Shown in pieces: positions 6,476-49,315 of a stretch of 60,043 bases of DNA. The notes under the pieces are model-generated. The model had not been told where the DNA came from and did not search any database. It saw only the letters and a program-made list of their open reading frames with translations. Source of the stretch: a bacterium UBP6_UBA1177 (GTDB taxonomy: Bacteria > UBP6 > UBA1177). The stretch is from positions 25,635 to 85,677 of the forward strand of contig DBYV01000044.1 of the NCBI GenBank assembly GCA_002310995.1. Direction: 5' to 3'. The position numbers were made by a program, and so were the translations under genes. Position 1 is the first letter of the stretch. The number at the start of each line of letters is the position of its first letter.

Positions 6476-6503
6476 ATTTTAAAAAAAAAAGATGCTAAAT
6501 CAA
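6476..6503 (-). promoter_or_regulatory. Sigma70-like promoter for the ABC-F gene
   Basis: TTGATT-N16-TAAAAT on the minus strand. Confidence 0.55.
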
Positions 6504-6534
6504 CTCCGTTTTCTTAATTTTGTGCTATTTTGTA

Positions 6535-6562
6535 TTTACAAATAATATGATTTAGCTAAAAT
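6535..6562 (+). promoter_or_regulatory. Sigma70-like promoter
   Basis: TTTACA-N16-TAAAAT, then aatGCGGTTTTTTT and a GAGGAG RBS. Confidence 0.6.
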
Positions 6563-6588
6563 AATGCGGTTTTTTTGAGGAGAGAAAA

Positions 6589-7923
6589 ATGAAGTTTTCA
6601 GCTTTGATTTCCGTTTTGTTTATTTGTTTCGTTTTTGCGGCATGTGCTTCTGATGAAGAAGAAGCTACTTGCGTTACTGCTTTTGACTGCCCTGACGGCT
6701 ATTCGTGTGTAGATTCTGTCTGCCAGCCTCAGTCTGCAGAATCGGATAGTGATTCCGATGATGTTTCTGACACTTCTGATACATCCGAACCTCCGTCAAC
6801 GGGTGATTCAGATGATGTTTTGCCTGGAGAAGATAGTGATGTGCCGGAAATACCGGACGATATTCAAGGTTGTCCGAATGCTTGCAGTGGTTTCGGCGAG
6901 TGTGATTTCGAAAAAGGAAAATGCGTATGCAATGAAACTCATGGCGGCGAAGATTGTTCTGAATGTGCCGAAGGTTATCATTTGGAAGCTGAAGGCGACG
7001 ATGAAGACGGAAATCCAGATGTCCGCTCATGCGTAGTCAACATGACATGCGAACCAAATCCGTGCAACAACAACGGCTGCAAAGAAGAGGGTGACACGGT
7101 TAAATGTACATGCACTGCTGCAAGCCATGCTGCAGGAAGATGGTGCGAAGAATGCGTTGAAGGTTATGCAAAAAGCAATGTCGATGGCACATGCAAAGAG
7201 GATTGTTCTAAAAAAAACTGCACGGCACCGCAAAAATGCGGAATGGATTACACAACCAATGAAGCAAGCTGTAACCAATGTGAAAACGAGTTTTATTCCG
7301 GCGCTGACTGCAAAAGCTGTGATGCGGCTCACTTCTGTAACGGTCACGGAACGGCGTGTGTTGTTGAAGGCGGTACTGAAAAATGCACTTGTGAAACTGC
7401 TTATCAAGGAGCACAATGTAATACCTGCGCTCCTGGATATGCGTTGAAAAACGGTGAGTGCGTTAAAGCTTGTACTGCAGAGCAATGTTTTACGGATTTT
7501 TCCTGTGTGCTTTCTGATAACACTTACAATGTAAAAGGGCATTGTAATATTTCGACTTGCGAATGCGAACAAGGCTGGTCAACAAAAGGTTCAGGAGAAA
7601 CTGTTAATTGCACAGACTCTACCGGTTTTCTTGTATTGGATAGCCGTAGCAATGTTATGTGTACGGTTTGCAATATAGACAATCCGCCTTTGGAATATAA
7701 CACGACAGGTTGTCCGACAGATTGTCCAAGCGGATTCTGCGACGACAACAATTTATCTTCTTTGGGATTTATTAACGGTCAATGCTACACTGAACCTGTT
7801 ACTCATAAAGTTGCATGTGATTGTTCCGTTATGGGTATGGGTATGTTTGGCACAATGGGCGGAACCGGCAGCAAATACTATGATGACAATCCGACTGGTC
7901 AGTGCGGCGGTGATTCCAACTAA
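6589..7923 (+). CDS. Cys-rich lipoprotein with EGF/laminin-like repeats
   Basis: Signal ending FAAC, acidic linker, repeats such as CSGFGEC...CVCNETHGGEDCSECAEGY. Confidence 0.8.
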   Translation: MKFSALISVLFICFVFAACASDEEEATCVTAFDCPDGYSCVDSVCQPQSAESDSDSDDVSDTSDTSEPPSTGDSDDVLPGEDSDVPEIPDDIQGCPNACSGFGECDFEKGKCVCNETHGGEDCSECAEGYHLEAEGDDEDGNPDVRSCVVNMTCEPNPCNNNGCKEEGDTVKCTCTAASHAAGRWCEECVEGYAKSNVDGTCKEDCSKKNCTAPQKCGMDYTTNEASCNQCENEFYSGADCKSCDAAHFCNGHGTACVVEGGTEKCTCETAYQGAQCNTCAPGYALKNGECVKACTAEQCFTDFSCVLSDNTYNVKGHCNISTCECEQGWSTKGSGETVNCTDSTGFLVLDSRSNVMCTVCNIDNPPLEYNTTGCPTDCPSGFCDDNNLSSLGFINGQCYTEPVTHKVACDCSVMGMGMFGTMGGTGSKYYDDNPTGQCGGDSN

Positions 7924-8008
7924 CAGTTTTATCCTCACTTCTTCTTAAGATCTTAAAAAATCAATGTTGCTTAAAATTTAAGGGTATTATTCTTTTTTAC
8001 TTTTTTTC

Positions 8009-8036
8009 TTGACCTTTTAAATTTAAGGTATATAAT
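8009..8036 (+). promoter_or_regulatory. lexA promoter with overlapping inverted repeat ACCTT-N8-AAGGT (8012-8029)
   Basis: TTGACC-N16-TATAAT; palindrome overlaps the -35 box and spacer. Confidence 0.65.
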
Positions 8037-8068: not shown

Positions 8069-8716
8069 ATGAAAACGTCGAATCGGAACGAACTTACAGA
8101 ATCTCAGGCAAAAGTTTTAAAAACAATCAATGATTTTATTGAAGAAAACGGCTATTCTCCGACTGCTAAGGAGATTTCAGAAATTCTGCACATCACGCAG
8201 ACTTCGGTTTTTGAGCAGCTTGAAAGGCTTGAGAAAAAAAGGTATATAACCCGCCAGAAAGGTGCCGCAAGAACTATCGGTCTTCTGAATCAGCCTGAAA
8301 ATGAAAAGCCTGCCAAAAAGAGCGATGCCGTAAAACTGGTCAAGGTTCCTGTCATCGGAACTATTGCTGCCGGTGTTCCGATTTTTGCCGATGAAAACAT
8401 GGACGGCGAGATTCTTGTCGATGAAAGCAATATCGGGAAGGGGAGGTTCTTTGCTCTTCGTGTCAGAGGCGACAGTATGATAAACGCCGGAATCAACAAC
8501 GGCGATTTAGTTATAATAAAACGTCAGCCGCTTGCCGAAAACGGAGATATCATTGCTGCTCTTATAGACAGCGAGGCTACTTTGAAACGTCTTTCGCTTG
8601 ATAACGGCGAAGTATTTCTTCTTCCGGAAAACGAAAAATATTCTCCGATAAACGTGACATGTCGTGAAGATTTCAGAATTCTAGGCAAAATGGTTACGGT
8701 GGTTACTGTTTTGTAG
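8069..8716 (+). CDS. lexA: Transcriptional repressor LexA
   Basis: N-terminal wHTH (GYSPTAKEI), Ala-Gly cleavage site IAAGVP, catalytic Ser (VRGDSM) and Lys (ATLKR). Confidence 0.92.
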   Translation: MKTSNRNELTESQAKVLKTINDFIEENGYSPTAKEISEILHITQTSVFEQLERLEKKRYITRQKGAARTIGLLNQPENEKPAKKSDAVKLVKVPVIGTIAAGVPIFADENMDGEILVDESNIGKGRFFALRVRGDSMINAGINNGDLVIIKRQPLAENGDIIAALIDSEATLKRLSLDNGEVFLLPENEKYSPINVTCREDFRILGKMVTVVTVL

Positions 8717-8734: not shown

Positions 8735-8762
8735 TTGACAACCTTATAAATATAGTTAAAAT
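8735..8762 (+). promoter_or_regulatory. Sigma70-like promoter for the porin gene
   Basis: TTGACA-N16-TAAAAT, then tagCGGTTTTTTT. Confidence 0.65.
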
Positions 8763-8791
8763 TAGCGGTTTTTTTGTGAGGTGTGACAACT

Positions 8792-10282
8792 ATGAACAGT
8801 GTTTTTAAGCATTTATTCGTTTTTATGTTGTTTTTTGTTCCCGTCTGTCTTGCAGCTGAGGAAAACGAACCTGCGGCGGAAGAGAGTAAGCCGGAAGTCA
8901 GTGATACTGTTGCGGCTTCTGCGGAAAATCCGGCTCAGGCAGAAAAGGCTGAAGAAAGCAAAGATGAGAAAAAAGATGATGGCAGAGGATTCGTTTTTGG
9001 TTCTTACGGCAGAGTCCAGCCGGCAACTGATCTTCGCGGTGGCTCTCCGAAATGGGTGAATATTGTCGGTCACGGCAGCAGGCTTGAACAGTCGAGCTAT
9101 GTCGAACTTGATTTTGCCTATCTTTTCAAGAAAATCGGTGACAACGGTCCGCTTTTTGATTTCGTTTCGACTCTTGCTTTTTCAGAATCGCTTTTCCACG
9201 ACAACGGTAAATGGATAGCTTTGAACACGGTCAGAAACCTTTTTGTCAGGGCTGAAAATGTTTTCTGGAAGCCGCTCGGTTTCTGGGTAGGAAGCAGAAT
9301 GTACCGCGGTGACGACATTTATCTTCTCGACTTCTGGCCTCTTGACGACGACAATATTTATGGTGGCGGCGTGACTCTTCACTTCGATACCTGGGCACTT
9401 GAATACTATTTCGGCTTCAACCGTCTTGAAGTTGACTGGCAGTATCAGGAACAGCAGGTTGTATCCGATACTTTCGGTTCCGAAAGCATAACATGGATGG
9501 ACAGGCAGCGCATTGTCACCGGTCTTAAATATATGCAGAGATACAATATTTCCGAAAAGCTTGGTTTAAAATGGAAGCTGATAGGAGAATTTCAGAGGAT
9601 CAGTGCCGGTGAAAAGAGTAACGATCCTTTGGATGAGGACAACTCAATCATTTATCCCGAGGATTTCGGCTGGTCTCTCGGTGCCCAGCTCGGGCTTTTC
9701 GGTTATGCAAAGAACAGTTTTACCGATATTTTCTTCAAATATTCCGGCGGTCTCGCGGCTTACGGCCTGATGAGCGTTCCGTGGGGCTTCGATTCCGATT
9801 ACAAAACGAAAGATGCGAGAGAGTTGCTTTTTGCGGTCACTTCAAACCTTGAAATCGGCTGGTTCGGCGCTATTTTCGGCGGTTATGTCCGTTCTTTCAG
9901 AGATTCCGACGGCAACAAATACGACAACGACGATTTTGTCGAATACACTTTTTCACTTCGTCCGCATTTCTTCATCCACGAAAATTTCTACCTCGCTTTC
10001 GAAGTTTCGCATCAGCTCAAGGATATGAACGGTCTGACAACGCTTAGCAACGGCGAAACCAAGAGCGCTCGTCCGCAGGTCACGAAATTTTCGCTTATTC
10101 CGATCGTAACTTACGGCGGCGGAAACTACGGCAGACCGCAGCTGCGTTTAGTTTACACTCTCGCAGTTCAGAACGACGACGCCCGCTATTCCTACAACAA
10201 AGAAGACTACCGCGCAAAACACTCGATTCTTCACTATTTCGGCCTCAGCGCCGAGTGGTGGTTCAACGTTGACCACAGATAA
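8792..10282 (+). CDS. LamB/maltoporin-like carbohydrate porin
   Basis: Signal peptide, FGSYGR near the mature start, FWVGSRMYRGDDIYLLDFW resembling the LamB conserved block, beta-strand pattern, terminal AEWWF. ATG 8792 preferred over GTG 8783 by RBS spacing. Confidence 0.7.
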   Translation: MNSVFKHLFVFMLFFVPVCLAAEENEPAAEESKPEVSDTVAASAENPAQAEKAEESKDEKKDDGRGFVFGSYGRVQPATDLRGGSPKWVNIVGHGSRLEQSSYVELDFAYLFKKIGDNGPLFDFVSTLAFSESLFHDNGKWIALNTVRNLFVRAENVFWKPLGFWVGSRMYRGDDIYLLDFWPLDDDNIYGGGVTLHFDTWALEYYFGFNRLEVDWQYQEQQVVSDTFGSESITWMDRQRIVTGLKYMQRYNISEKLGLKWKLIGEFQRISAGEKSNDPLDEDNSIIYPEDFGWSLGAQLGLFGYAKNSFTDIFFKYSGGLAAYGLMSVPWGFDSDYKTKDARELLFAVTSNLEIGWFGAIFGGYVRSFRDSDGNKYDNDDFVEYTFSLRPHFFIHENFYLAFEVSHQLKDMNGLTTLSNGETKSARPQVTKFSLIPIVTYGGGNYGRPQLRLVYTLAVQNDDARYSYNKEDYRAKHSILHYFGLSAEWWFNVDHR

Positions 10283-10360
10283 TTCTTTAAAAAATTCCTA
10301 AAAATTTAATTATGATTATAATAATGCGTTTTTTGTTGATTTAACTTAAGAAGGTGAATT

Positions 10361-10738
10361 ATGAAACTGGTTAAAAAACTACTTTTTATTTTAATTATAG
10401 CTGTGATTGCAGTTATGATTTCATATTTTGCAAGAATGAATGATACAAATGTCACTCTCAATCTGATTTTTGTCTCCGTAAAGGATATCCAGCTCTGGCT
10501 TCTTTCGCTTTTCTGCTTTCTTGCCGGGGTTATTTTTTCAGTTTTGGCTGTCTTTCTTGATATTATTTTCATGTCTGGCAAGGAAAGAAAGTTGCTTAAG
10601 GAGCTTAAAAAACTCAAATCTGAACTTTCGGCTGTCCGTAATGAAAAACTGGACAATATTGATGAGTCCGATTTGTCGGAAAACAGCGACAGACTGCCTG
10701 TGAAAGAGGAATCAAGCGAAAATAAGGAACAAAATTAG
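10361..10738 (+). CDS. LapA-family (DUF1049-like) membrane protein
   Basis: Two hydrophobic segments, N-x-x-x-V-x-L pattern, C-terminal coiled coil; precedes a LapB-like gene. Confidence 0.75.
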   Translation: MKLVKKLLFILIIAVIAVMISYFARMNDTNVTLNLIFVSVKDIQLWLLSLFCFLAGVIFSVLAVFLDIIFMSGKERKLLKELKKLKSELSAVRNEKLDNIDESDLSENSDRLPVKEESSENKEQN

Positions 10739-13487: not shown

Positions 13488-14420
13488 TTATCTGTCGAAA
13501 TCTTTTTCGAAGCCCACTTTCTGAAGAAGTCTTTCCTTGTCGAACCACTTTTCCTCGACTCTGACGAAAAGACTTAAGCCCACCTGACAGCCGTAAAGTT
13601 CTTCAATATCGTGTCTTGCTAAAGAGCCTATTTTGCCCAAAGTTGCACCTTTTTTACCTAGGACGATTCCTTTCTGGCTGTCTCTCGCGACGTGTATCGT
13701 GGCGTCGATCATCAGAATATCCTTTGTTCTGTGGTCGTGCATCCTTTCGACTGTGACTACGACGGAGTAGGGAAGTTCCTGCGAAAGTTCGAGGAACAGT
13801 TTTTCCCTGATTATTTCCGAAACGAGGAAGTTATCCTCCTGATCGGTCTCCATATCTTCCGGAAAAAGCTGCGGACCCGGCTTGCAGAACTGCTTCAGCC
13901 CTTCGAGAAGCTCTTCTATTCCTAAACCTGTTTTTGCTGAAATCGCGTAAGATGTGGCGAATTTAAAATGCTTTTTGTAAACCGCAATTGTATCGTCTAC
14001 ACGCATTGGTTTTACGGCATCGGCTTTGTTCGCAACGAGTATTACGGGTGTTTTTACGGTAAGGTTTTTAAGAATGTGAGCTTCTTCCTCTCCGATTCCT
14101 TTTTCGGGGTGCTGAGTTGAAACATCAACGAAAAACATGGTGAAATCTGAATCCTGCGCGGCCGAAAAACTGTATTTGTTCATCCAGTTGTTGAGGAGTT
14201 TGCCGAAATCGGTCGAGGTTATTCCCGGAGTGTCAGTGAAGACAATCTGCGTGTCGGGCGCGTTGTAGATCCCGCGGATTTTGTTGCGAGTCGTCTGCGC
14301 TTTCGGGGTGACAATAGAGATCTTCGACTTGACGACTGTGTTCACGAAAGTCGATTTTCCTGAGTTCGGAACGCCGATTATAGCCGCGAATCCAGAGTAT
14401 TTAAGCTCGTTACCCAACAT
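13488..14420 (-). CDS. era: GTPase Era
   Basis: GVPNSGKST, AQTTR, DTPG, NKAD, C-terminal KH domain (SQKGIVLGKKG). Confidence 0.96.
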   Translation of the reverse strand: MLGNELKYSGFAAIIGVPNSGKSTFVNTVVKSKISIVTPKAQTTRNKIRGIYNAPDTQIVFTDTPGITSTDFGKLLNNWMNKYSFSAAQDSDFTMFFVDVSTQHPEKGIGEEEAHILKNLTVKTPVILVANKADAVKPMRVDDTIAVYKKHFKFATSYAISAKTGLGIEELLEGLKQFCKPGPQLFPEDMETDQEDNFLVSEIIREKLFLELSQELPYSVVVTVERMHDHRTKDILMIDATIHVARDSQKGIVLGKKGATLGKIGSLARHDIEELYGCQVGLSLFVRVEEKWFDKERLLQKVGFEKDFDR

Positions 14421-15453: not shown

Positions 15454-15481
15454 AATTTATATGATATTTTTTTTATTGCAA
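15454..15481 (-). promoter_or_regulatory. Sigma70-like promoter for the asparaginase-era operon
   Basis: TTGCAA-N16-TAAATT on the minus strand. Confidence 0.5.
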
Positions 15482-17860: not shown

Positions 17861-17888
17861 ATTATAGATATAAAAAATTTTAAATCAA
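17861..17888 (-). promoter_or_regulatory. Sigma70-like promoter for the MshEN/HD gene
   Basis: TTGATT-N16-TATAAT on the minus strand, followed by a T-tract. Confidence 0.6.
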
Positions 17889-18840: not shown

Positions 18841-18868
18841 AATATAGCCGAAAGGATTTTCTCTGCAA
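18841..18868 (-). promoter_or_regulatory. Sigma70-like promoter for nagZ
   Basis: TTGCAG-N16-TATATT on the minus strand. Confidence 0.5.
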
Positions 18869-18980
18869 ATTTTGCGGATATATTTTGTTCTGTGATTGAA
18901 AAATTTTATCTTAGATTTGACAAATATAAATAGTTTGATAATATCTAAATTGTTTGTTGATTGCTTGTGAGGTTAAAATA

Positions 18981-28893: not shown

Positions 28894-28921
28894 TTGTTTT
28901 TAGTCTGTTTTTAACTATAAT
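28894..28921 (+). promoter_or_regulatory. Promoter of the TA operon
   Basis: TTGTTT-N16-TATAAT then ttGCCG. Confidence 0.5.
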
Positions 28922-30278: not shown

Positions 30279-30306
30279 TTGACTTGCATTTTCTATACCT
30301 TATAAT
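30279..30306 (+). promoter_or_regulatory. Sigma70-like promoter
   Basis: TTGACT-N16-TATAAT then ttGCGG and a T-rich leader. Confidence 0.65.
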
Positions 30307-35963: not shown

Positions 35964-36127
35964 ATACAGTCATCCCCAAGAAACAATTTTTTAACAACAT
36001 GCTTATACTATAATTTAAGTTTTTATCAATAAATTTTGATTTTAAATTAAAAATTGTCGTCTTTTCGTGGCGACACAACGCAATCACCACTCGCATTTCC
36101 TCATTCTCCGAATCAACATTGTCTAAC

Positions 36128-36187: not shown

Positions 36188-36215
36188 TTGCATTTCAAGA
36201 TTTTTTCTGCATAAT
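36188..36215 (+). promoter_or_regulatory. Sigma70-like promoter of the methyltransferase locus
   Basis: TTGCAT-N16-CATAAT. Confidence 0.5.
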
Positions 36216-38670: not shown

Positions 38671-38698
38671 TTGACTTTTTCTTAAGATTATGTAAACT
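38671..38698 (+). promoter_or_regulatory. Sigma70-like promoter of the AbiTii operon
   Basis: TTGACT-N16-TAAACT. Confidence 0.55.
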
Positions 38699-40624: not shown

Positions 40625-40650
40625 GTTCTGGAACAAACCCAACAATCCCA

Positions 40651-40750: not shown

Positions 40751-40780
40751 AGACGAAGACCTATTTTTTTCTGATTTCGC

Positions 40781-40860: not shown

Positions 40861-40985
40861 TAAGGATTGCAAATCCGCAGACAAAAATTCCAAAATAATC
40901 TTAAAATAAAAAACAAAAAATAATTTGACTTTCTTGATAAATACATAAATTTTGCTGAGATTGTTTGGAAACGGAGCCCAACCCG

Positions 40986-41099
40986 ATGACCCCACTCAAT
41001 AAACTCAAATCCGGCGAGAGCCGAACCCTTGAATTTAAGCGGGAACTGCCGCAGAATGCGGGAAAGAGGGGGAACGGCGATAATTTGGAGGAAATATAA
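40986..41099 (+). pseudogene. 37-aa mini-ORF encoding an AlbA_2 N-terminal fragment
   Basis: MTPLNKLKSGESRTLEFKRELPQNA...; the stop abuts the ATG at 41100. Confidence 0.7.
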
Positions 41100-42725
41100 A
41101 TGAATCTCGATATCAATCAAAAGTTGGACGAACTTCTTTCGATGAAATATGAAACTGAGACCGTTGAATTTAAAGAAGCTAAAGAGACTTTTGCTTTTGA
41201 TGATCTCGGAAAATATTTTTCAGCTTTGAGCAATGAAGCGAACCTTCACAATGAAAAATATGCATGGCTCGTTTTTGGTGTTGAAGACAAAAAACACAAT
41301 ATTGTCGGGACAAATTACAAAAATGATGACAAGTCTTTGCTGGCTCTGAAAGAGGAAATGGGAAAGCAGACTACAGGAAATTTAACTTTTGTCGAAATAT
41401 ATACTTGCCTTAGAAAAGCCAAAAATAACGAGGAAAAACGAGTTCTTGTTTTCCAAATTCCGGCTGCTCCGTGCGGAATGCCGGTTGCATTCAAAAGAAT
41501 GTATTACGGGCGTGACGGCGAGGCTCTTGTCGGGCTGAGTATCGAAAAAATCGAGAGGATCCGCGCCCAGAATGTTACGAATGACTGGAGTGCGCAGATC
41601 ATTCCAAACGCTACGTTCGAGCATCTTTCAAAAGAGGCGATTTCGCTTGCGCGGAAAATGTATGCCGAAAAGAATCCTCATCTTGCTTCTGATATTGAGC
41701 GTTGGAGCGATTCGACTTTTTTGAATAATGCACGGCTTACACGCGAAGGCAAGATCACCAATACGACGATCCTGCTTTTGGGAAAGCCAGAATCGGCAGA
41801 TTTGATTATTCCGGCTATCAGTCAAATTACCTGGATTCTGAAAGACCGTGACGGCATGGTAAGGGATTATGAACATTTTTACTGCCCGCTCATTGTTTCG
41901 GCAGAGAAAGTTCAGGCAAAAATACGAAATCTAACATCCCGTTACATGACCGGCGATTCGATTTTTCCGAAAGAAACTTTGCAGTACGATCCTTACATTA
42001 TCCGCGAGGCGTTGAACAACGCTATCGCTCATCAGGATTATTCAAAAGCGGGAAGAATCACCGTTCAGGAGCACGAAGACGACTATCTGATTTTCTGCAA
42101 CTGCGGCGATTTTATTCCGGGAAGCATAAAAAATGTTTTGAAAGCTGAATATTCTGCGAGCAATTACCGCAATCCGTTTCTTGCGACTGCAATGGTCAAT
42201 CTGAACATGATCGACACTGTCGGAAGCGGTATCCTGAAAATGTTCCTTGCTCAGAAAAAGAGATGTTTTCCTTTGCCCGATTACGATTTTTCAAATCACG
42301 AAGTACGCATGAAACTTTATGGCAAAATCCTGGATATAAACTATACCAGGCGGCTCCTGAATGAAGATTTGCCGCTTTCTGAAGTCTTCGAATTGGATAG
42401 AAAACAGAAAGAAGAATTCATTTCGCATAGAAACGATCCTGTAAAAGAACAAGTAAAGGAACAAGTAAATGTCCAAGAAAATGTCCAAGAAAATGTCCAA
42501 GAAAAAGGAGTAAATGTCCAAGAAAATGTCCAAGAAAAAACTCGAGAAGAAATGATACTAAATCTTTTGCAGAACAATAATACAATCTCGATACGAGAAC
42601 TTGCAGAGCAATTAAATATGACTGCAAAAACGATTCAGCGAGATTTAGATAAATTAAAGTCACAAAACCTTATCCGCCGCATAGGTCCGAACAAAGGCGG
42701 TCACTGGGAGGTGATTAAAAAATGA
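41100..42725 (+). CDS. Schlafen/AlbA_2 domain + HATPase_c_4 (RecG C-terminal-like) + HTH protein
   Basis: ETVEFKEA...SALSNEA...LVFGVED; IREALNNAIAHQDY; RNPFLA; GSG; C-terminal DeoR-like HTH ending GGHWEV. Confidence 0.88.
   Translation: MNLDINQKLDELLSMKYETETVEFKEAKETFAFDDLGKYFSALSNEANLHNEKYAWLVFGVEDKKHNIVGTNYKNDDKSLLALKEEMGKQTTGNLTFVEIYTCLRKAKNNEEKRVLVFQIPAAPCGMPVAFKRMYYGRDGEALVGLSIEKIERIRAQNVTNDWSAQIIPNATFEHLSKEAISLARKMYAEKNPHLASDIERWSDSTFLNNARLTREGKITNTTILLLGKPESADLIIPAISQITWILKDRDGMVRDYEHFYCPLIVSAEKVQAKIRNLTSRYMTGDSIFPKETLQYDPYIIREALNNAIAHQDYSKAGRITVQEHEDDYLIFCNCGDFIPGSIKNVLKAEYSASNYRNPFLATAMVNLNMIDTVGSGILKMFLAQKKRCFPLPDYDFSNHEVRMKLYGKILDINYTRRLLNEDLPLSEVFELDRKQKEEFISHRNDPVKEQVKEQVNVQENVQENVQEKGVNVQENVQEKTREEMILNLLQNNNTISIRELAEQLNMTAKTIQRDLDKLKSQNLIRRIGPNKGGHWEVIKK
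42441..42540 (+). repeat. Intragenic 12-nt tandem repeat (VQEN/VKEQ)
   Basis: gtccaagaaaat units encoding VKEQVKEQVNVQENVQENVQEKGVNVQENVQEK. Confidence 0.95.
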
Positions 42726-42781
42726 CCTTACTCGATGAAATCAAATCCGGCGAAAGCCAAACTCTCGAATTTAAACAGTAA
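42722..42781 (+). pseudogene. 19-aa mini-ORF encoding an AlbA_2 N-terminal fragment
   Basis: MTLLDEIKSGESQTLEFKQ*; ATGA overlap with the upstream stop. Confidence 0.75.
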
Positions 42782-42830
42782 CCATCTGAATTTATTTGAA
42801 AATCCGTTCGAGGTGCAATTTTTGCACCTC
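42731..42830. repeat. About 100-bp degenerate direct repeat, right copy
   Basis: Colinear with 40651-40750; contains the palindrome CGAGGTGCAA-T-TTTGCACCTCG. Confidence 0.85.
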
Positions 42831-43090: not shown

Positions 43091-43118
43091 TTCACAAACA
43101 AAAGCAAGAGACTATACT
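43091..43118 (+). promoter_or_regulatory. Sigma70-like promoter
   Basis: TTCACA-N16-TATACT then ctCGCG and a T-tract. Confidence 0.55.
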
Positions 43119-43161: not shown

Positions 43162-44376
43162 ATGACTACAAGACTTGAAAACGCTCTTAACAATCATGTC
43201 AACGAGCTCAAAGCAAAAGGAACGGCTAAAGGCGACGAAATGGTCATCACCAAAATTCTCCCGCCCGAAGGCGCAAACGGCCCGCGTTATGTCGTTGAAG
43301 GTTATGAACAGAAGTTTATCAAAATGAATTCAAACAGTTACCTCGGTCTTTCAATGAGAAAGGAAGTCATCGAAGCAGAGGAAGAGGGAACGAAAAACTT
43401 TGGTGTCGGTCCCGGTGCTGTCCGCTTCATTTCCGGAACCCACAAGGCTCACATCGACCTTGAAAAAAGACTCGCGAAGTTCCACGGCAGAGAATCGGCA
43501 ATGCTTTTCTCAAGCGCTTACGTCACTTCGATGGGCGTTATTTTCCCGCTTATCACCAATGAAACAGTCATCATCAGCGACGAGCTCAACCACAACTGCA
43601 TCATCAACGCGATGAAACTTTCCCGTCCGGCACTCAAACTTATATACAAACACAACAGCATGGAAGACCTTGAAGCAAAACTTCAGGAAGCTGTAGGCAA
43701 AGGCAAAAGATGCATCGTCGTAACAGACGGCGTTTTCTCGATGAGAGGCGACTTCTGCCCGTTCGACAAATTCACGGCGATCTGCAGGAAATACAACGAC
43801 AAATTCGAAGAAGGCGTAACGACTGTTGCTGACGATTCCCACGGTGTAGGCGCTTACGGCAAGACCGGAAGAGGAACAGAGGAAGTTACCGGCGCGAAAG
43901 TCGACATCCTTATCGGCACGCTCGGAAAATCATACGGCGTAAACGGCGGATACGTTGTCGCATCCAAAGCAGTAACCGAATTCTTGAGACAGACCGCTCC
44001 GATGTATATCTACTCGAACCCGATCACGGTCGGCGAAGCTTACGCAGTTCTCAAAGTTCTCGACATCCTTGAAAGCGAAGAAGGCATCAAACGCCTTGCA
44101 CACCTTGCAGAAATCACAGCAAGATTCGAAAAAGGACTCGTTGACAACGGCTTCGAGACGATCGCAGGTCCGCACCCCGTAACTCCGCTCATGGTCAGAG
44201 ACACCAAAAAGACGGCAGACATCGTTGCATGGCTCACGAAGAACGGCGTCCTCGCAACGGCTATGAACTACCCGGTAGTTCCGAAAGGCGACGAAGAGAT
44301 CCGTTTCCAGATCAACGCGGACCACACCGCAGCCGATATCGACTACGTAATCAACGTTCTGAAATCATTTAAATAA
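43162..44376 (+). CDS. PLP-dependent alpha-oxoamine synthase (Kbl/BioF family)
   Basis: NSYLGL, SDELNHNCII, DGVFSMRGD, DDSHG, GTLGK (PLP Lys); GGAGG RBS before ATG 43162. Confidence 0.9.
   Translation: MTTRLENALNNHVNELKAKGTAKGDEMVITKILPPEGANGPRYVVEGYEQKFIKMNSNSYLGLSMRKEVIEAEEEGTKNFGVGPGAVRFISGTHKAHIDLEKRLAKFHGRESAMLFSSAYVTSMGVIFPLITNETVIISDELNHNCIINAMKLSRPALKLIYKHNSMEDLEAKLQEAVGKGKRCIVVTDGVFSMRGDFCPFDKFTAICRKYNDKFEEGVTTVADDSHGVGAYGKTGRGTEEVTGAKVDILIGTLGKSYGVNGGYVVASKAVTEFLRQTAPMYIYSNPITVGEAYAVLKVLDILESEEGIKRLAHLAEITARFEKGLVDNGFETIAGPHPVTPLMVRDTKKTADIVAWLTKNGVLATAMNYPVVPKGDEEIRFQINADHTAADIDYVINVLKSFK
44335..44376. repeat. 42-bp direct repeat, left copy (3' end of the Kbl/BioF gene)
   Basis: gatatcgactacgtaatcaacgttctgaaatcatttaaataa; 39/42 identical to 45581-45622. 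Confidence 0.97.
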
Positions 44377-44462: not shown

Positions 44463-44498
44463 TTATTATTGACAAAATAATTTCTTTGTTAATAATAA
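44463..44498 (+). promoter_or_regulatory. Palindromic operator overlapping the promoter of the hipBA-like operon
   Basis: TTATTATTGACAAA-N8-TTTGTTAATAATAA (13/14 inverted match); contains TTGACA-N16-AATAAT. Confidence 0.7.
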
Positions 44499-44552
44499 TA
44501 AAAGTTGTTCTTGTTTTTGGGGGTCGTTTTGAAAGGACACAGCATTATCGTT

Positions 44553-44852
44553 ATGCCTTCGACGCAGAAAATTCTTGAGCAAATGGGAGAGCAGATAAAA
44601 CTTGCCCGCCTCAGAAGAAAACTCAGCGCGGAACTTGTGGCGGAACGTGCCGGAGTAAGCCGTGTCACGCTTTGGAACATCGAAAAAGGCTCGCCGTCAG
44701 TTGCGATGGGAGCTTATGCGGCAGTCCTTCATGCAATCGGCGGAATGGACAGAGACCTGCTTTTGATTGCGAAAGACGACGAACTCGGGCGGAAACTTCA
44801 GGATCTCGGGCTTCTGCCGAAAAAACGGGCTCCGAAAAAGGAGGCTGAATAA
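44553..44852 (+). CDS. XRE-family HTH protein (HipB-like antitoxin)
   Basis: GEQIKLARLRRKLSAELVAERAGVSRVTLWNIEKG; start uncertain (TTG 44529 also possible). Confidence 0.85.
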   Translation: MPSTQKILEQMGEQIKLARLRRKLSAELVAERAGVSRVTLWNIEKGSPSVAMGAYAAVLHAIGGMDRDLLLIAKDDELGRKLQDLGLLPKKRAPKKEAE

Positions 44853-45596
44853 TGGCAGCGGGAGAGAAAAAAATATATGTTTACGAAAACTGGTCATCGG
44901 AAATTCCGCGCGAACTCGGTATTTTGTATGTCAGCAATGTCCGAGGAACGGAGACTTTTTCCTTCGAATACAACGAAGAATATCTGAAAAATCCTGTTTC
45001 GTGCAGTATAGATCCGGATCTGGAGCTTTTTCAGGGCAGACAGTTCACGTATCAAAAACCTAATTTCGGTATTTTTTCCGATTCCGTTCCGGACAGATGG
45101 GGTCGCACTCTCATGGATCGTCGTGAAAGATTCCGTGCAAAGGAAGAAGGGCGTAAACCTCGGACTCTGCTTACAAGCGATTATAAAAAACGGTGCAAAA
45201 CCAAAAGAGGATCTTACCGAACTCTGGAAAAGAATCGTTTTCAATATGGCGGTTTCCAACACAGACGATCACCTCAGAAACCACGGTTTTATCCTTTCCA
45301 AAAACGGCTGGAGGCTTTCTCCTGCTTACGATATAAACCCGAATCCTGCAGGAGAGGGACTTGCGCTGAATGTCAGCGAAAACGATAATTCAATCGATAT
45401 AAATCTCGCGCTGAGCACTCACAGATTCTATCAGCTTGAAAAAGATAAAGCTGCAAAAATCGCTTCGGAAATATGTCTTGCCGTCAGCAGAAACTGGGAG
45501 AAAATTGCTTCAAAACACGGAATCAGCCGCAGCATGATTGAACTTATGCGACCTGCGTTCAACGCAGCGGTTAAGAATAAGATATCGACTACGTAA
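44852..45596 (+). pseudogene. hipA: HipA-family kinase toxin, internally deleted and frameshifted
   Basis: N-terminal FSFEY...FGIFSDSVPDRWGR in one frame; C-terminal NTDDHLRNHG...LSPAYD in another; they meet near gattat at 45179-45184 with the central part absent. Confidence 0.85.
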
Positions 45597-45622: not shown

Positions 45623-45758
45623 TCTTTTAAATCTCTGACTTAATCTCGCATTTTCCTTAAAATCGAGTATAATCCTCTGTTTTTTGTTACGTTTGAAATG
45701 TCTTTAAAATTGAAAATTTCGGTACAAATGAAAAGTCGGGATGTTTTTTGAGGGTAAA

Positions 45759-48700
45759 ATGAAGAAATTATTTGTTGTTTTCGCGCTTTTATGCACATTT
45801 TTTATGATTTCCTGCGGAAGCTCAAAAGATAAGGCAAAGCGCGGCGAACTTTACGGCGAATGTTATCCGGACGGAACCTGTAACGAAGGGCTTGTCTGCG
45901 ATACTGAGTATAATGTCTGCATAGAAGATCCCGATTTTGAAGATGACGAAGATAAAATTGACTCAGATGAAATAGATTCTGATTCGATTGATGACATTGA
46001 TAAATTCGATGATACTGAAAACGATGCTGAGCCGGCAGATCCGTGTGATCCTGATCCGTGCAAAGAACTTGAACATTCAAACGGAAAGTGCAAAACGGTT
46101 TCTGAATCACGTTATTCCTGCGGATGTGTTGAAGGATATTATTGGTTGGAAGAGGAAAATATATGTACTGACAGACCGACTCTCGGCAATATATGCTCGG
46201 GGCAGAAATACTGCTACGACGACGGTTTGTTGATCAGCTGTCCTTTATCTGATGAGGATTTTTACGGTCAGGATGCGCAATATGCGGAAGCCGGCACATG
46301 CATACAGCAGAATTTTACAATAAAAAAAGCTCCGGGACAGAATATCGTTGTGGACGACAATACTAGTCTTGAGTGGCAGCAGGCTGCTTCGGATAAAGAA
46401 TATACGTTCGAAGAGGCTAAAAACTATTGCGACGAGTTAGTTTACGGGGGATATTCTGACTGGCGTCTGCCTGAACCGCACGAAATTTTATCGATTGTCA
46501 ATATCGGACAGAACAATTCATTTATAAACAATAACTTCACAAATATATCGGCTGACTATGATGCAGAGTTGTGGACTTCTCACGAATCCAAGTGCTTAAG
46601 AGTTAGTGAAGGGTCATATTCTTATTGCAGTTCACGATCAAAAAATGTGCTGTGTGTTCGCGGCAGCAAAATGAAAAAAGGTCTTTTTTCATCAAAAACC
46701 ATCAATGGAGATATTGTTGTCATTGATGCGGTTACGGCTCTGATCTGGCAGAAAGATTCAGATTTCAGAAGCACTTGGAAAGAGGCTTTGAAATATTGCG
46801 AAAATCTGGATTATGCCGGCAGGCGCGACTGGCGTCTGCCCAATAAAAACGAAGTTATTTCACTGATGGATTTTGACAAATCTGAAGAGCCTTATTCTGA
46901 TTTTCCTGATATACCTGGTTGGTTATGGTCTTCCTCTAATTCTTTTTACGTGGAAGATGCATGGTGCGCGGATTTTTCCAGAGGTTATTTGTCACCGTTA
47001 TGCTATAAAAGGAGTGAGAGTTCAGTTCGTTGCGTTACCGGTGGACGCGGTGTAGATCCTGATGATCCCTGTAATCCGAATCCGTGCGTAAATATCGCCA
47101 ATTCGACAGGGGAATGCAAAAAACTCTCTCCGAAACGTTATTCCTGCGAATGTGCCGAAGGTTATTATTTGTGGGAATCGGAAAACGCCTGTCTTGAAAA
47201 AAAGCCGCTTACCGTCGGTGAGATCTGCACGGGGCAGACACAGTGTTATGACAATGCTTCGGCAGGGGACTGCCGCGAGTTGACCTGCTCCGATTTTTAC
47301 GGTCAGGATGCACAGTATGCGGCTTGGGGAGTCTGTACACCGCAGAACTTCACTGTAAAAACAGTTGACGGGCAAAATATCGTTATAGACAACAACACCG
47401 GTTTTGTCTGGCAACAGTCTCCTTCCTCCGAAGAATACTCTTGGGAAGAAGCAAAAAAACACTGTATTGATTTGAATAAATCCGGTTTTGCCGGTTTCAG
47501 TGGCTGGCGCGCTCCAACAGTGCATGAACTGCTTTCAATTGCGGACAACAGTTCATCTAGTTCCGGAATAAATCCGAATTTTACAAATATAAGTTCCTGC
47601 CTGTGGAGTTCCGAAATATACAGCGATGTAAAATGCAATGTGCTTTGTGTTCACGGAAGTGAAATGCCCAAAGCAGTTTTTATGTCAGAAATGGTAGGTG
47701 AAGATGTTATCGTTACCGATTCAACGACAGGTTTGATATGGCAGAAAAATTATGACTCAAAAAAATGGACAAAGGCTTTGAAATATTGTGAAGATCTGGA
47801 TTATGCCGGCCGCACGGACTGGCGTCTGCCAAATAAAAACGAGCTGGCTTCACTACTGAACCTCACAAAATCTGATCAGTGTTATTCCGATTTTCCAGAT
47901 ATGGACTGCCAGCCATGTGTATTCTGGTCTTCATCCGCGCCTGTCAGAGTGGACGACAATGACTATGCATGGTTTGTCGATTTCAAAAGCGGAGTAGCTA
48001 ACACCAATCGAAAGATAGAAAACTACGCAGTCCGCTGTGTTGCAGGAGGAGGCGTTATCAAACTTGAAGATCCGTGTGAGCCCAACCCGTGCGGAAATTT
48101 TTCAAATTCAACCGGAGTATGTCAGGCAAGTTCGGAAATACTTTATTCATGCGGATGTGCTGATGGATATTACTGGTGGGGAGTTGAAGCGGGATGTGTT
48201 GCTGCAAAACCTATGTCGATAGGCAAAATCTGCACGGGACAGACAAAGTGCTACGGTGAAAATCAAGTGTTTGAAACTTGTCCGGCAGAGGGAGAAGACT
48301 TTTACGGTCAGGATGCTCACTATGCGGCCTTGGGAATTTGTCTGCCGCCGAGTTTTAGTTTAGATGAAACGGTTCCTGAACAAAAACTTATTGTGGACAA
48401 CAATACCGGTCTGAAGTGGCAGCAGACACTTGACGAAAACACATACACTTGGGAAGATGCGCAGAATTATTGCAATAACCTGAATTATGCAGGCTACAGC
48501 AGTGGTTGGCGAGTTCCAACACCGATAGAATATACGACAATAAATAAGACTGATTTTACGAATATGACATCTCCGTATCTCTGGACTTCAAAAAGTTTTA
48601 ACAGTAATAATGCACGGACTTTTAACCCGTCAGGCGGAACAACTGGATATACTTCAAAACCATTCACTTATCAGGTGATATGTGTTCACGGCAGCGAAAT

Positions 48701-49079
48701 GCCAAAAGGAGTTTTTACAACAAAAACAGTGAATGACGATGTCGTTGTAAACGATCTGATAACAGGTTTGATGTGGCAGAAAGATTGGAATTCCAGAATC
48801 ACTTGGAAGGAGGCTTTAAAATATTGCGAAGATCTGGATTATGCCGGCTATACTGACTGGCGTCTGCCAAATAAAAACGAGCTTGCATCACTCATAAACT
48901 TTGATAAATCAATGGAAGTCTATTCCGATTTCCCCGATCTTATACCGTCGGATGACCGCTTCTGGTCATCTACCAACATCGGCAGTCAAGCAAATTTTAT
49001 TAGTTTTTCCGGCGGGTATGTAGGGCGCGACGGCAAAAGCTATACTTATTTCGGCAGATGCGTGAGAAACGCAGATTAA
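45759..49079 (+). CDS. Large lipoprotein with 3 x (EGF-like + 2 x DUF1566) modules
   Basis: Signal ending MISC; three DPCxPxPC units; repeated FYGQDAQY, DNNTGLxW, WRLPNKNEL, VRCV. Confidence 0.88.
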   Translation: MKKLFVVFALLCTFFMISCGSSKDKAKRGELYGECYPDGTCNEGLVCDTEYNVCIEDPDFEDDEDKIDSDEIDSDSIDDIDKFDDTENDAEPADPCDPDPCKELEHSNGKCKTVSESRYSCGCVEGYYWLEEENICTDRPTLGNICSGQKYCYDDGLLISCPLSDEDFYGQDAQYAEAGTCIQQNFTIKKAPGQNIVVDDNTSLEWQQAASDKEYTFEEAKNYCDELVYGGYSDWRLPEPHEILSIVNIGQNNSFINNNFTNISADYDAELWTSHESKCLRVSEGSYSYCSSRSKNVLCVRGSKMKKGLFSSKTINGDIVVIDAVTALIWQKDSDFRSTWKEALKYCENLDYAGRRDWRLPNKNEVISLMDFDKSEEPYSDFPDIPGWLWSSSNSFYVEDAWCADFSRGYLSPLCYKRSESSVRCVTGGRGVDPDDPCNPNPCVNIANSTGECKKLSPKRYSCECAEGYYLWESENACLEKKPLTVGEICTGQTQCYDNASAGDCRELTCSDFYGQDAQYAAWGVCTPQNFTVKTVDGQNIVIDNNTGFVWQQSPSSEEYSWEEAKKHCIDLNKSGFAGFSGWRAPTVHELLSIADNSSSSSGINPNFTNISSCLWSSEIYSDVKCNVLCVHGSEMPKAVFMSEMVGEDVIVTDSTTGLIWQKNYDSKKWTKALKYCEDLDYAGRTDWRLPNKNELASLLNLTKSDQCYSDFPDMDCQPCVFWSSSAPVRVDDNDYAWFVDFKSGVANTNRKIENYAVRCVAGGGVIKLEDPCEPNPCGNFSNSTGVCQASSEILYSCGCADGYYWWGVEAGCVAAKPMSIGKICTGQTKCYGENQVFETCPAEGEDFYGQDAHYAALGICLPPSFSLDETVPEQKLIVDNNTGLKWQQTLDENTYTWEDAQNYCNNLNYAGYSSGWRVPTPIEYTTINKTDFTNMTSPYLWTSKSFNSNNARTFNPSGGTTGYTSKPFTYQVICVHGSEMPKGVFTTKTVNDDVVVNDLITGLMWQKDWNSRITWKEALKYCEDLDYAGYTDWRLPNKNELASLINFDKSMEVYSDFPDLIPSDDRFWSSTNIGSQANFISFSGGYVGRDGKSYTYFGRCVRNAD

Positions 49080-49160
49080 CTCAATCCTTTTATTAAATTA
49101 TTTCCAGAAACTCTTCGATTTTAGTCTTAAATTTTTTCTTGAAAAATCCATTTTTTGTAG

Positions 49161-49248
49161 TTATAAGTGCGCATAATCGGAGTTTATTGGTATTTTATAC
49201 CTGCGCATAATCGGTTTTTGTGCCGTTTTTATAAGTGCGCATAATGAA
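49161..49248. repeat. Three ~20-bp direct repeats at exact 34-bp period (core TGCGCATAAT)
   Basis: ttataagtgcgcataatcgg (49161), ttatacctgcgcataatcgg (49195), ttataagtgcgcataatgaa (49229). Confidence 0.9.
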
Positions 49249-49287
49249 CGAACCCGCATGACTTTCTGTTTGTAAAAAATATTTAAT

Positions 49288-49315
49288 TTGCCAGCATCTT
49301 GAAGATGTATAAAAT
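49288..49315 (+). promoter_or_regulatory. Sigma70-like promoter
   Basis: TTGCCA-N16-TAAAAT then aCCGCagTTTTTT. Confidence 0.6.

What the first reader, a model, noticed from the sequence alone, without database searches (positions are those of the whole stretch)
6476..49315. Housekeeping promoters consistently use a 16-bp spacer
Seen: about 17 intergenic -35/-10 pairs all have 16 nt between the boxes. Plus strand: TTTACA/TAAAAT 6535, TTGACC/TATAAT 8009, TTGACA/TAAAAT 8735, TTGACA/TAATAT 18917, TTGTTT/TATAAT 28894, TTGACT/TATAAT 30279, TTGCAT/CATAAT 36188, TTGACT/TAAACT 38671, TTCACA/TATACT 43091, TTGACA/AATAAT 44469, TCGCAT/TATAAT 45646, TTGCCA/TAAAAT 49288. Minus strand: TTGATT/TAAAAT 6476-6503, TTGCAA/TAAATT 15454-15481, TTGATT/TATAAT 17861-17888, TTGCAG/TATATT 18841-18868, TTGATA/TATAAG 36002-36029. 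Established: sigma70/sigmaA optimum is 17 bp. Inference: the primary sigma factor or RNA polymerase of this lineage has altered spacing geometry. Caveat: sites were picked by eye, so selection bias is possible.
Basis: partly seen in the sequence, partly recalled or inferred. Interest (0 to 1): 0.62.

Follow-up and report, generated by a model that had tools for sequence, protein, structure and literature searches.

The report
Promoters with a fixed 16-bp spacer
In this uncultured rumen bacterium the two boxes of ordinary promoters (TTGACA and TATAAT) are almost always 16 bp apart instead of the usual 17. This habit arose inside its own lineage, which suggests that its transcription machinery measures promoters one base pair shorter.

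Summary
All 17 sites exist at the stated coordinates with 16 nt between the boxes.

- **Unbiased test.** In 915 upstream regions of the 2.3-Mb genome, TTG sits 16 nt upstream of a TATAAT-like box 246 times. It sits at 17 nt 32 times and at 15 nt 21 times, against a background of about 18. A variable-gap EM gives the same peak and shuffles are flat.
- **Promoter behaviour.** The sites are strand- and position-specific, non-redundant, and conserved in length between orthologous promoters. A GCG discriminator and a T-run follow them.
- **Distribution.** The genome belongs to a small uncultured phylum (UBP6-like, 39 genomes). Its own genus is about 94% 16 bp. Other families of the order mix 16 and 17 with no 18. 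A family outside the order peaks at 17 in the same pipeline.
- **Mechanism.** RpoD has no indel from region 2.1 to 4.2, the -35 recognition helix and the beta flap tip match E. coli, and only substitutions plus an unusual sigma C-terminal tail track the trait. Sigma-54 sites keep canonical spacing and gyrase is present, which argues against a general DNA-twist cause.
- **Precedent.** Earlier unchecked notes of this scan report the same trait on other DNA (WOR-3, Caldisericota). I found no published description.

The parts
6535..6562 (+). Promoter TTTACA-N16-TAAAAT followed by AATGCGGTTTTTTT. It ends 26 nt before the gene at 6589 (444 aa, no Pfam match).
6476..6503 (-). Promoter TTGATT-N16-TAAAAT, 21 nt before the ABC-F ATPase gene (4517-6454, minus strand). 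It is divergent to the 6535 promoter.
8009..8036 (+). Promoter TTGACC-N16-TATAAT of lexA (8069-8716). The 16-nt length is kept in 11 of the 12 genus loci scanned (G003 gave no clear match), while the spacer sequence drifts.
8735..8762 (+). Promoter TTGACA-N16-TAAAAT followed by TAGCGGTTTTTTT, for a LamB-type porin gene (8792-10282). The orthologues that retain this promoter (12 of 14 genus loci) keep the same register, reading TAAAAT or TAATAT.
10295..10322 (+). It lies 38 nt before a LapA-domain gene (10361-10738).
15454..15481 (-). Weak pair TTGCAA-N16-TAAATT (8/12), 24 nt before the asparaginase gene (14410-15429, minus strand).
17861..17888 (-). Promoter TTGATT-N16-TATAAT before the HD-domain protein gene (16155-17816, minus strand).
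18841..18868 (-). Pair TTGCAG-N16-TATATT before the GH3 glycosidase gene (17899-18816, minus strand). It can also be read as TTTGCA-N17.
18917..18944 (+). Promoter TTGACA-N16-TAATAT, 36 nt before the ComM/Mg-chelatase-like gene (18981-20507).
28894..28921 (+). Promoter TTGTTT-N16-TATAAT followed by TTGCCGTTG, 30 nt before a 78-aa ORF (28952-29188).
30279..30306 (+). Promoter TTGACT-N16-TATAAT followed by TTGCGGCTTTGTT, 31 nt before the PMT-family glycosyltransferase gene (30338-32575).
36002..36029 (-). Pair TTGATA-N16-TATAAG, 38 nt before the ORF6N-domain gene (35118-35963, minus strand), at the edge of the low-GC island.
36188..36215 (+). Pair TTGCAT-N16-CATAAT, 230 nt from the DNA methylase gene. 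The register is ambiguous (TTTGCA-N17). A nearer 16-spaced pair, TTGATA/TAGATT, lies at 36383-36410.
38671..38698 (+). Promoter TTGACT-N16-TAAACT, 80 nt before the AbiTii gene (38779-39669) in the low-GC island.
43091..43118 (+). Promoter TTCACA-N16-TATACT followed by CTCGCGTCATTTTT, 43 nt before the aminotransferase gene (43162-44376).
44469..44496 (+). Promoter TTGACA-N16-AATAAT before the HTH / HipA_C gene pair (44505-45596).
45646..45673 (+). Pair TCGCAT-N16-TATAAT followed by CCTCTGTTTTTTG, before the first Lcl_C-repeat protein gene (45741-49079). The -35 is weak and could also be read as CTCGCA-N17.
49288..49315 (+). Promoter TTGCCA-N16-TAAAAT followed by ACCGCAGTTTTTT, before the second Lcl_C-repeat protein gene (49340-52711).
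52763..52790 (+).

Best explanation
**What the sites are.** They are the ordinary primary-sigma (sigma70/RpoD-type) promoters of an uncultured rumen bacterium from a small candidate phylum (UBP6-like). The genome-wide consensus is TTGACA-N16-TATAAT-nnyGCG(G/T)-TTTTT, and the mRNA leader is about 30 nt long.

**What is shown.**
- The 16-bp spacing is real.
- It is nearly exclusive in this genus, at about 93-94% of the signal.
- It is specific to promoter positions and orientation.
- Its length is conserved between orthologous promoters while the spacer sequence drifts.
- It is a derived trait of the order. A family outside the order peaks at 17, other families of the order use 16 at least as often as 17 and never 18, and the genus is fixed at 16.

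**What is inferred.** The initiation machinery of this lineage works best when the two boxes are one base pair closer, and in this genus it tolerates little else. That means sigma region 4 sits about 3.4 angstroms nearer and about 34 degrees rotated relative to sigma region 2. Because sigma, the beta flap tip and the beta' zinc-binding region have no indels, the shift would come from substitutions. Candidates are the order-specific changes in sigma regions 2.2, 3.0, 3.2 and 4.1, and the non-canonical, 2-aa-shorter C-terminal tail that packs next to the flap-binding surface of region 4. An accessory factor such as the CarD-like protein could contribute.
For: - **Sites verified.** All 17 sites are at the stated coordinates.
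- **Genome-wide peak at 16.** Three methods agree: hexamer pairs, -10 anchoring and a variable-gap EM. Coding DNA and shuffled sequences serve as controls.
- **Promoter-like placement.** Between tandem genes there are 93 sites at spacer 16 on the sense strand and 8 on the antisense strand. Convergent gaps have 2 and 1. Divergent gaps have 46 and 33.
- **Position relative to genes.** The -10 box ends a median 37 nt before the start codon, with an interquartile range of 29-48.
- **tRNA genes.** 8 of the 15 best pairs upstream of tRNA genes use 16, with the -10 box ending 9-18 nt before the mature 5' end for most of them (one, tRNA-Lys, lies 47 nt away).
- **Not a repeat family.** The spacer sequences are not redundant.
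- **Orthologous promoters.** The lexA promoters and the porin orthologues that retain the promoter keep 16 across the genus while the spacer bases change.
- **Whole-genome counts of TTGAC-N(s+1)-TAWAAT in the 39 genomes of the phylum, net of the control pattern.** Own genus: 593 at 16, 29 at 17, 11 at 15. Other genera of the family: 307 against 70. Family f5: 96 against 31. Family f7, outside the order: 14 against 57.
- **Full pipeline on 400-kb samples.** G027 (f7) peaks at 17. G017, G018, G030 and G038 mix 16 and 17 with 18 at background.
- **Best promoters.** The closest-to-consensus promoters favour 16 in the order and 17 in f7.
- **Sigma substitutions.** Sigma changes shared by all order members and absent from f7 and E. 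coli are seen in the alignment.
- **Twist control.** Sigma-54 sites keep canonical spacing, with 7 at N5 and none at N4 or N6. Gyrase is present and reverse gyrase is absent. Both argue against a general DNA-twist cause.
- **Baseline.** A survey of 49 TSS-mapped species found 17 bp predominant (PMC12641261).
Against:
- No structural change was found that would obviously move sigma region 4. RpoD has no indel in regions 2-4, its recognition helix is identical to E. coli, and the beta flap-tip helix is identical.
- The sigma substitutions are shared by order members that still use 17 in 20-40% of promoters, so they cannot explain the strict 16 of the genus on their own.
- A 16-bp spacer with a GC-rich discriminator is also the signature of a kinetic class of E. 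coli promoters (rrn and tRNA promoters; PMC9303308). Selection for promoter kinetics could therefore give the same pattern without any change in polymerase optimum.
- The E. coli control of my pipeline was weak: 25 pairs at spacer 17 against about 15 at other spacers in 400 kb.
Confidence: 0.5

Rival explanations
1. **Kinetic or regulatory selection.** The polymerase still binds best at 17 bp. This lineage has moved essentially all promoters into the class that E. coli uses for rRNA and tRNA genes, with a 16-bp spacer and a GC-rich discriminator. Such promoters give short-lived open complexes, so transcription is governed globally by ppGpp/DksA, initiating-NTP level, CarD or supercoiling rather than by many specific regulators.
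For: - The discriminator is GC-rich, with G at 67% and GC at 78% at the 6th nt after the -10 box, and a T-run follows.
- The genome encodes a DksA/TraR-type protein, a RelA/SpoT homologue and a CarD-like protein.
- PMC9303308 describes the E. coli class with a 16-nt spacer and a GC-rich discriminator.
Against: - The trait covers all gene classes, including defence-island and toxin-antitoxin genes.
- In mixed genomes of the order, 16- and 17-spaced promoters have equally GC-enriched discriminators (p = 0.21). This differs from E. coli, where the two features go together.
- The 18-bp spacer is at background across the order while 16 is at least as common as 17. The whole distribution has therefore moved, rather than one class being added.
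- The closest-to-consensus promoters prefer 16.
Confidence: 0.22
2. **DNA topology.** The chromosome of this lineage is less negatively supercoiled, or its DNA twist differs for another reason. A 16-bp spacer then presents the two boxes at the angle that 17 bp gives in E. coli, and the polymerase itself is unchanged.
For: Torsional models and drug experiments in E. coli show that shorter spacers are favoured by DNA relaxation (PMC9303308). No indel was found in sigma or at the flap tip.
Against: - GyrA is present above the curated cut-off and there is no reverse gyrase.
- Sigma-54 promoters keep canonical -24/-12 spacing, with 7 at N5 and none at N4 or N6.
- A full 1-bp shift (about 34 degrees) would need nearly complete loss of supercoiling.
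- Close relatives in the same habitat differ in how strict the spacing is.
- In the cited work, 16-nt spacers did not follow the torsional model.
Confidence: 0.1
3. **Artefact.** The pattern results from picking by eye, from chance in AT-rich intergenic DNA, from a dispersed repeat that carries one promoter, or from a mis-registered hexamer.
For:
- At a loose threshold the window's first 20 kb holds only 31 promoter-like pairs, against 25 in shuffles.
- Three of the 17 sites have an alternative 17-nt reading.
Against: - Unbiased genome-wide counts, -10 anchoring and the EM all peak sharply at 16, while coding DNA and shuffles do not.
- The spacers are diverse.
- There is no T enrichment before TTG and no TG before the -10 box that would shift the register.
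- The same pipeline returns 17 for a related genome.
Confidence: 0.02

Closest known systems
Canonical sigma70/SigA housekeeping promoters (TTGACA-N17-TATAAT) of E. coli, B. subtilis and the 49 TSS-mapped species surveyed in PMC12641261
   Same: Both boxes have the same sequence. The sigma residues of regions 2.4 and 4.2 are the same. The position upstream of genes is the same. The T-rich initial transcribed region matches what that survey reports for Gracilicutes.
   Different: The spacer mode is 16, not 17. The distribution is far narrower: about 93% at one length, against roughly 20/60/20 for 16/17/18 in the out-of-order relative G027 and in E. coli-type organisms. There is no 18-bp class anywhere in the order.
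E. coli stable-RNA promoters (rrn P1/P2 and most tRNA promoters): 16-nt spacer plus GC-rich discriminator, under stringent and supercoiling control (discussed in PMC9303308)
   Same: They share a 16-bp spacer, near-consensus hexamers and a GC-rich discriminator just downstream of the -10 box.
   Different: In E. coli this is a small, specially regulated class. Here it is the default for every kind of gene. In relatives with mixed spacers the GC-rich discriminator is not tied to the 16-bp spacer.
Lineage-specific housekeeping promoter variants: Bacteroidota sigmaA promoters (-33/-7 elements) and alphaproteobacterial promoters lacking -7T (PMC7703639; both mentioned in PMC12641261)
   Same: A whole clade departs from the E. 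coli promoter rule together with changes in its primary sigma or polymerase.
   Different: Those clades changed the box sequences. Here the boxes are textbook and only the distance between them changed.
ECF (group 4) sigma promoters with rigid -35/-10 spacing (structural basis in bioRxiv 10.1101/534826)
   Same: The tolerance for spacer length is very narrow.
   Different: ECF rigidity is ascribed to a short sigma2-sigma4 linker. This RpoD has a full-length region 3 and linker with no indel relative to E. coli.

Membership tests
sigma70/RpoD-type housekeeping promoter | -35 element resembling TTGACA | tested here: met
   In 176 aligned promoters the -35 positions read T 99%, T 94%, G 92%, A 87%, C 68%, A 67%. 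The EM consensus is TTGACA.
sigma70/RpoD-type housekeeping promoter | -10 element TAnnnT resembling TATAAT | tested here: met
   The logo reads T A t A A T. The EM consensus is TAAAAT.
sigma70/RpoD-type housekeeping promoter | Spacer of 17 +/- 1 bp with the mode at 17 | tested here: not met
   The length lies within the accepted range, but the mode is 16. About 93% of the signal is at 16, about 6% at 17 and none at 18.
sigma70/RpoD-type housekeeping promoter | Located upstream of genes and co-oriented with them | tested here: met
   Tandem gaps hold 93 sense and 8 antisense sites. Convergent gaps hold 2 and 1. The median distance from the -10 box to the start codon is 37 nt.
sigma70/RpoD-type housekeeping promoter | Transcription starts 6-8 nt downstream of the -10 box | not testable with these tools
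Indirect evidence only: a conserved C-G step 5-6 nt after the -10 box, and most 16-spaced tRNA promoters have the mature 5' end 9-18 nt after it.
sigma70/RpoD-type housekeeping promoter | A primary sigma factor with conserved regions 2.4, 3.0 and 4.2 is encoded in the genome | tested here: met
   RpoD is 667 aa. Pfam finds regions 1.2, 2, 3 and 4. The 4.2 helix VTRERIRQIEAKA is identical to E. coli.
Stringent / stable-RNA promoter class of E. coli (16-nt spacer plus GC-rich discriminator) | 16-bp spacer | tested here: met
Stringent / stable-RNA promoter class of E. coli (16-nt spacer plus GC-rich discriminator) | GC-rich discriminator | tested here: met
   GC is 59-78% at nt 4-6 after the -10 box, against 35% in upstream regions overall.
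Stringent / stable-RNA promoter class of E. coli (16-nt spacer plus GC-rich discriminator) | Restricted to rRNA, tRNA and translation genes | tested here: not met
   The promoters stand before lexA, porin, glycosidase, aminotransferase, defence and toxin-antitoxin genes, and before about 40% of all upstream regions.
Stringent / stable-RNA promoter class of E. coli (16-nt spacer plus GC-rich discriminator) | Short-lived open complex that responds to ppGpp/DksA | not testable with these tools
   Only the genes for a DksA-type protein, RelA/SpoT and a CarD-like protein were found.

The most novel reading that the evidence does not exclude
The RNA polymerase holoenzyme of this order has an intrinsically shorter -35/-10 ruler, with its optimum at 16 bp. 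In the window's genus the ruler is almost rigid. The change is encoded only by substitutions, in sigma regions 2.2, 3.0, 3.2 and 4.1 and in a non-canonical sigma C-terminal tail, not by any indel. One small phylum holds a 17-type family, 16/17-type families and a strict 16-type genus. It would therefore be a natural series for finding the residues that set promoter spacing, a property so far treated as near-universal.
Probability: 0.4. Interest if true: 0.7.

Novelty: new variant of a known kind. Interest (0 to 1): 0.55.

Why it matters
[quoted passage not shown] Promoter predictors, biophysical models and synthetic-biology parts all build it in.

A clade in which textbook boxes sit 16 bp apart almost without exception has three consequences:
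- Default promoter finders would mis-score its promoters.
- Parts designed for 17 bp may work poorly in it.
- The ruler can evolve by 1 bp without visible insertions or deletions in sigma or at the flap tip.

The graded series within one phylum (17, then 16/17, then strict 16) gives a way to find what sets the ruler. Candidate residues can be tested directly by swapping sigma segments in a laboratory E. coli reporter strain.

Earlier unchecked notes of this scan report the same shift in WOR-3 and Caldisericota. If those hold, the shift has happened several times in uncultured phyla.

Tried and rejected
2. **E. coli as calibration.** 400 kb gave only a weak 17 peak at my strict thresholds, because E. 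coli promoters are too degenerate. The out-of-order relative G027 served as the working control and peaks at 17.
3. **Sigma indel hypothesis.** Rejected. There is no indel from region 2.1 to 4.2.
4. **Beta flap and beta' hypothesis.** The flap-tip helix is identical to E. coli. The zinc-binding, zipper and clamp-helix regions have no indel except 1 aa in the beta' lid region, around E. coli residue 259.
5. **Missing sigma region 1.1.** Pfam does not detect region 1.1, but the N-terminus carries a divergent region-1.1-like acidic segment, so I do not count it as missing.
6. **No gyrase or presence of reverse gyrase.** Rejected.
7. **Dispersed repeat carrying one promoter.** Rejected. The spacers are diverse.
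8. **Two kinetic classes in mixed genomes.** Not supported. The discriminator GC content is the same for 16- and 17-spaced promoters.
9. **rpoB/rpoC in the window.** I guessed that the two 1,100-aa genes in the window were rpoB and rpoC. They are Lcl_C-repeat proteins.
10. **Literature search for 'UBP6'.** It returned only the yeast deubiquitinase.


Full report
**Observation.** Each lies in intergenic DNA and points at a downstream gene. The -10 box usually ends 21-45 nt before the start codon. The downstream genes are of every kind:
- an ABC-F ATPase, lexA, a LamB-type porin, asparaginase and a GH3 glycosidase;
- a ComM-like ATPase, a glycosyltransferase and an aminotransferase;
- an HTH/HipA pair, two large Lcl_C-repeat proteins, a DNA methylase and an AbiTii gene.

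Three sites (18841, 36188, 45646) can also be read with a 17-nt spacer, because the -35 region reads TTTGCA or CTCGCA. One site (15454) matches only 8 of 12 positions.

**Is it more than chance or selection?** The window is contig C65:25635-85677 of a 2.31-Mb, 67-contig, 84%-complete genome with 43.8% GC. I called genes with a simple codon-usage and Shine-Dalgarno scheme (1767 genes) and took 915 upstream regions.
- Pairs matching TTGACA/TATAAT in at least 10 of 12 positions occur 177 times at spacer 16, 29 times at 17 and 23 times at 15. The background is about 20. At 11 of 12 the counts are 53 at 16, 4 at 17 and 5 at 15.
- Coding DNA shows only a 3-nt periodicity and no peak at 16.
- Anchored on the -10 box alone, TTG lies at spacer 16 in 246 of 979 cases, at 17 in 32 and at 15 in 21, over a background of about 18. 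About 93% of the excess is therefore at 16.
- An EM search that starts from TTGNNN/TANNNT with a flat prior over spacers 13-21 converges on TTGACA/TAAAAT. It puts 407 of 915 regions at 16, and 164 of the top quarter (230). Shuffled sequences are flat.

**Are they promoters?** Several independent features say yes.
- Between tandem genes there are 93 sites at spacer 16 on the sense strand and 8 on the antisense strand. Convergent gaps have 2 and 1. Divergent gaps have 46 and 33.
- The -10 box ends a median of 37 nt before the start codon, with an interquartile range of 29-48.
- Eight of the 15 best pairs upstream of tRNA genes use 16, and for most of them the -10 box ends 9-18 nt before the mature 5' end.
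- The 176 spacer sequences are not copies of each other.
- The aligned promoters show a further conserved element: TATAAT, three mostly pyrimidine bases, G/C-C-G (G at 67% at the sixth base after the box), G/T, then a T-run of at least five bases at 64-77% T.
- There is no extended -10 TG, and no base preference next to TTG that would shift the register.
- Across the genus, the lexA promoter (11 of 12 loci) and the porin promoter (12 of 14 loci) keep the 16-nt length while the spacer bases change.

**Who is it, and how far does the trait reach?** RpoD relatives are rumen and sediment metagenome-assembled genomes. Their labels are 'bacterium', 'uncultured Spirochaetales', 'UBP6_UBA1196' or 'Candidatus Sumerlaeota'. 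The species collection holds only 39 genomes of this phylum, in 7 families.

Whole-genome counts of TTGAC-N(s+1)-TAWAAT, minus the reversed-pattern control:

| Group | Spacer 16 | Spacer 17 | Spacer 15 |
|---|---|---|---|
| Own genus (15 genomes) | 593 | 29 | 11 |
| Other genera of the family | 307 | 70 | about 0 |
| Family f5 | 96 | 31 | 16 |
| G013 | 48 | 14 | 2 |
| G018 | 53 | 6 | 5 |
| G017 | 40 | 6 | about 0 |
| G015 | 17 | 13 | 1 |
| Family f7, outside the order | 14 | 57 | 6 |

G014 has many 17-spaced hits, but most belong to one repeat family.

The full pipeline on 400-kb samples gives these TTG-offset counts:

| Genome | Spacer 16 | Spacer 17 | Spacer 18 | Background |
|---|---|---|---|---|
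| G027 (f7) | 21 | 51 | 16 | about 9 |
| G017 | 26 | 27 | 10 | about 7 |
| G038 | 29 | 14 | 4 | about 3 |
| G018 | 29 | 17 | 4 | about 3 |
| G030 | 29 | 18 | 0 | about 2 |

The pipeline therefore recovers 17 where 17 is used. The order has a distribution shifted towards 16 with no 18-bp class, and the window's genus is fixed at 16. The closest-to-consensus promoters favour 16 in the order and 17 in f7. A survey of 49 TSS-mapped species across phyla found spacers of 16-18 bp with 17 predominant (PMC12641261).

**Mechanism: what was tested.**
- RpoD (667 aa) aligns to E. coli sigma70 and to solved RpoD structures without any indel from region 2.1 to the end of 4.2.
- The -35 recognition helix (VTRERIRQIEAKA) is identical to E. 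coli, and region 2.4 is nearly so.
- All members of the order share substitutions that f7 and E. coli lack: LQFLDLIQ to LDFKDII(C/A) in region 2.2, RQAITR to RQSITR, IETINKLNR to IEMMNKINK in region 3.0, and DSHLGDFIED to DSQLQDFVED in region 3.2.
- They also share a C-terminal tail reading KKMLKxKKTSWDDF in place of the widespread RHPSRSxVLxxFL. It is two residues shorter.
- The order's sigma core forms a tight group at 78-100% identity. The next-best database proteins reach about 64-67%.
- RpoB and RpoC (C27:5525-13951) are 50% and 53% identical to E. coli. The flap-tip helix is identical, and the zinc-binding, zipper and clamp-helix regions have no indel apart from one residue in the lid region.

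Any altered geometry must come from substitutions or from a partner protein. That is an inference, not a result.

**Rivals.**

*DNA topology.* Shorter spacers are favoured by relaxed DNA in E. coli (PMC9303308). Against this rival, gyrA is present, reverse gyrase is absent, and sigma-54 sites keep canonical spacing. TGGYRY-N5-TTGC occurs 7 times, and never with N4 or N6.

*Kinetic class.* In E. coli, a 16-nt spacer with a GC-rich discriminator marks rRNA and tRNA promoters (PMC9303308). This genome has a DksA-type protein, RelA/SpoT and a CarD-like protein. Three points count against this rival:
- Here the architecture is the default for all genes.
- In mixed genomes of the order, 16- and 17-spaced promoters have equally GC-enriched discriminators (p = 0.21).
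- The 18-bp class is missing altogether.

This rival cannot be excluded without biochemistry.

*Artefact or repeat.* Refuted by the controls above.

**Comparison and novelty.** These are members of the sigma70-type promoter family in every tested respect except the spacer mode and its narrowness. Their architecture resembles the E. coli stable-RNA promoter class, but they are not restricted to those genes.

I found no published description of a lineage with a near-exclusive 16-bp spacer. Earlier unchecked notes of this scan report the same trait in WOR-3 and Caldisericota, and a 15-bp version in a vent bacterium. Within the scan this is therefore a repeat finding on new DNA.

What this report adds:
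- a graded series inside one phylum;
- the negative result for indels in sigma, the flap tip and the beta' zinc-binding region;
- the sigma-54 internal control;
- a list of candidate sigma substitutions.

**Limits.** Gene calls are my own and crude. There are no transcription start data. The relatives are not statistically independent. The sigma substitutions are correlative. The E. coli control was weak at my thresholds.

Noticed in passing
genome-wide; in the window e.g. 6563-6576, 8763-8776, 30307-30320, 49316-49329: A conserved element lies directly downstream of the -10 box: nnyGCG(G/T) followed by a T-run of at least 5 nt, then a T/G-rich, C-poor leader of about 30 nt up to the Shine-Dalgarno site. 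The C-G step 5-6 nt after the box suggests a start one base closer to the -10 than usual. This was not tested.
   Followed up: partly
window 35100-42800: A low-GC (about 34%) island holds an ORF6N-domain gene, a DNA methylase, an AbiTii gene with a partner gene, and a Schlafen/AlbA_2-HTH protein. It looks like a defence island. Its promoters also use 16 bp.
   Followed up: no
window 45741-49079 and 49340-52711 (also 23000-24334, minus strand): Two adjacent paralogous genes of about 1,100 aa each carry six Lcl_C domains and have their own 16-spaced promoters. A third, shorter Lcl_C protein lies elsewhere in the window.
   Followed up: no
window 44505-45596: An HTH gene is followed by two overlapping ORFs. 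The second carries only the C-terminal part of a HipA kinase domain. This may be a split or decayed HipBA-type toxin-antitoxin module.
   Followed up: no
relative G014, many contig ends (e.g. C9:2166-2194, C24:235-263, C46:21424-21452): A repeat family carries TTGACATTC...CTCTGATATAAT, with a 17-nt spacer and an extended -10 TG. It has more than 25 copies, often near contig ends, and is probably a mobile element or tandem cassette. It inflates the 17-bp count of that genome.
   Followed up: no
relative G018:C3:1401076-1402257 (protein P0099): A second RpoD-like gene has order-type regions 2-3 and a detectable region 1.1, but a degenerate region 4.2 (DLTDKRIMQIEANAV). It is possibly an alternative sigma with a different or absent -35 reading.
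   Followed up: no
G000 C23, C37, C53, C55, C63 (upstream regions): Seven canonical sigma-54 sites (TGGCAC-N5-TTGC) lie 35-85 nt before start codons. Three of them cluster on contig C23.
   Followed up: partly
G000 C27:9647-13951 (rpoC): RpoC has a one-residue insertion in the beta' lid region (around E. coli residue 259) and a 36-aa longer C-terminus than E. coli. RpoB has a 19-aa insertion near E. coli residue 987.
   Followed up: no
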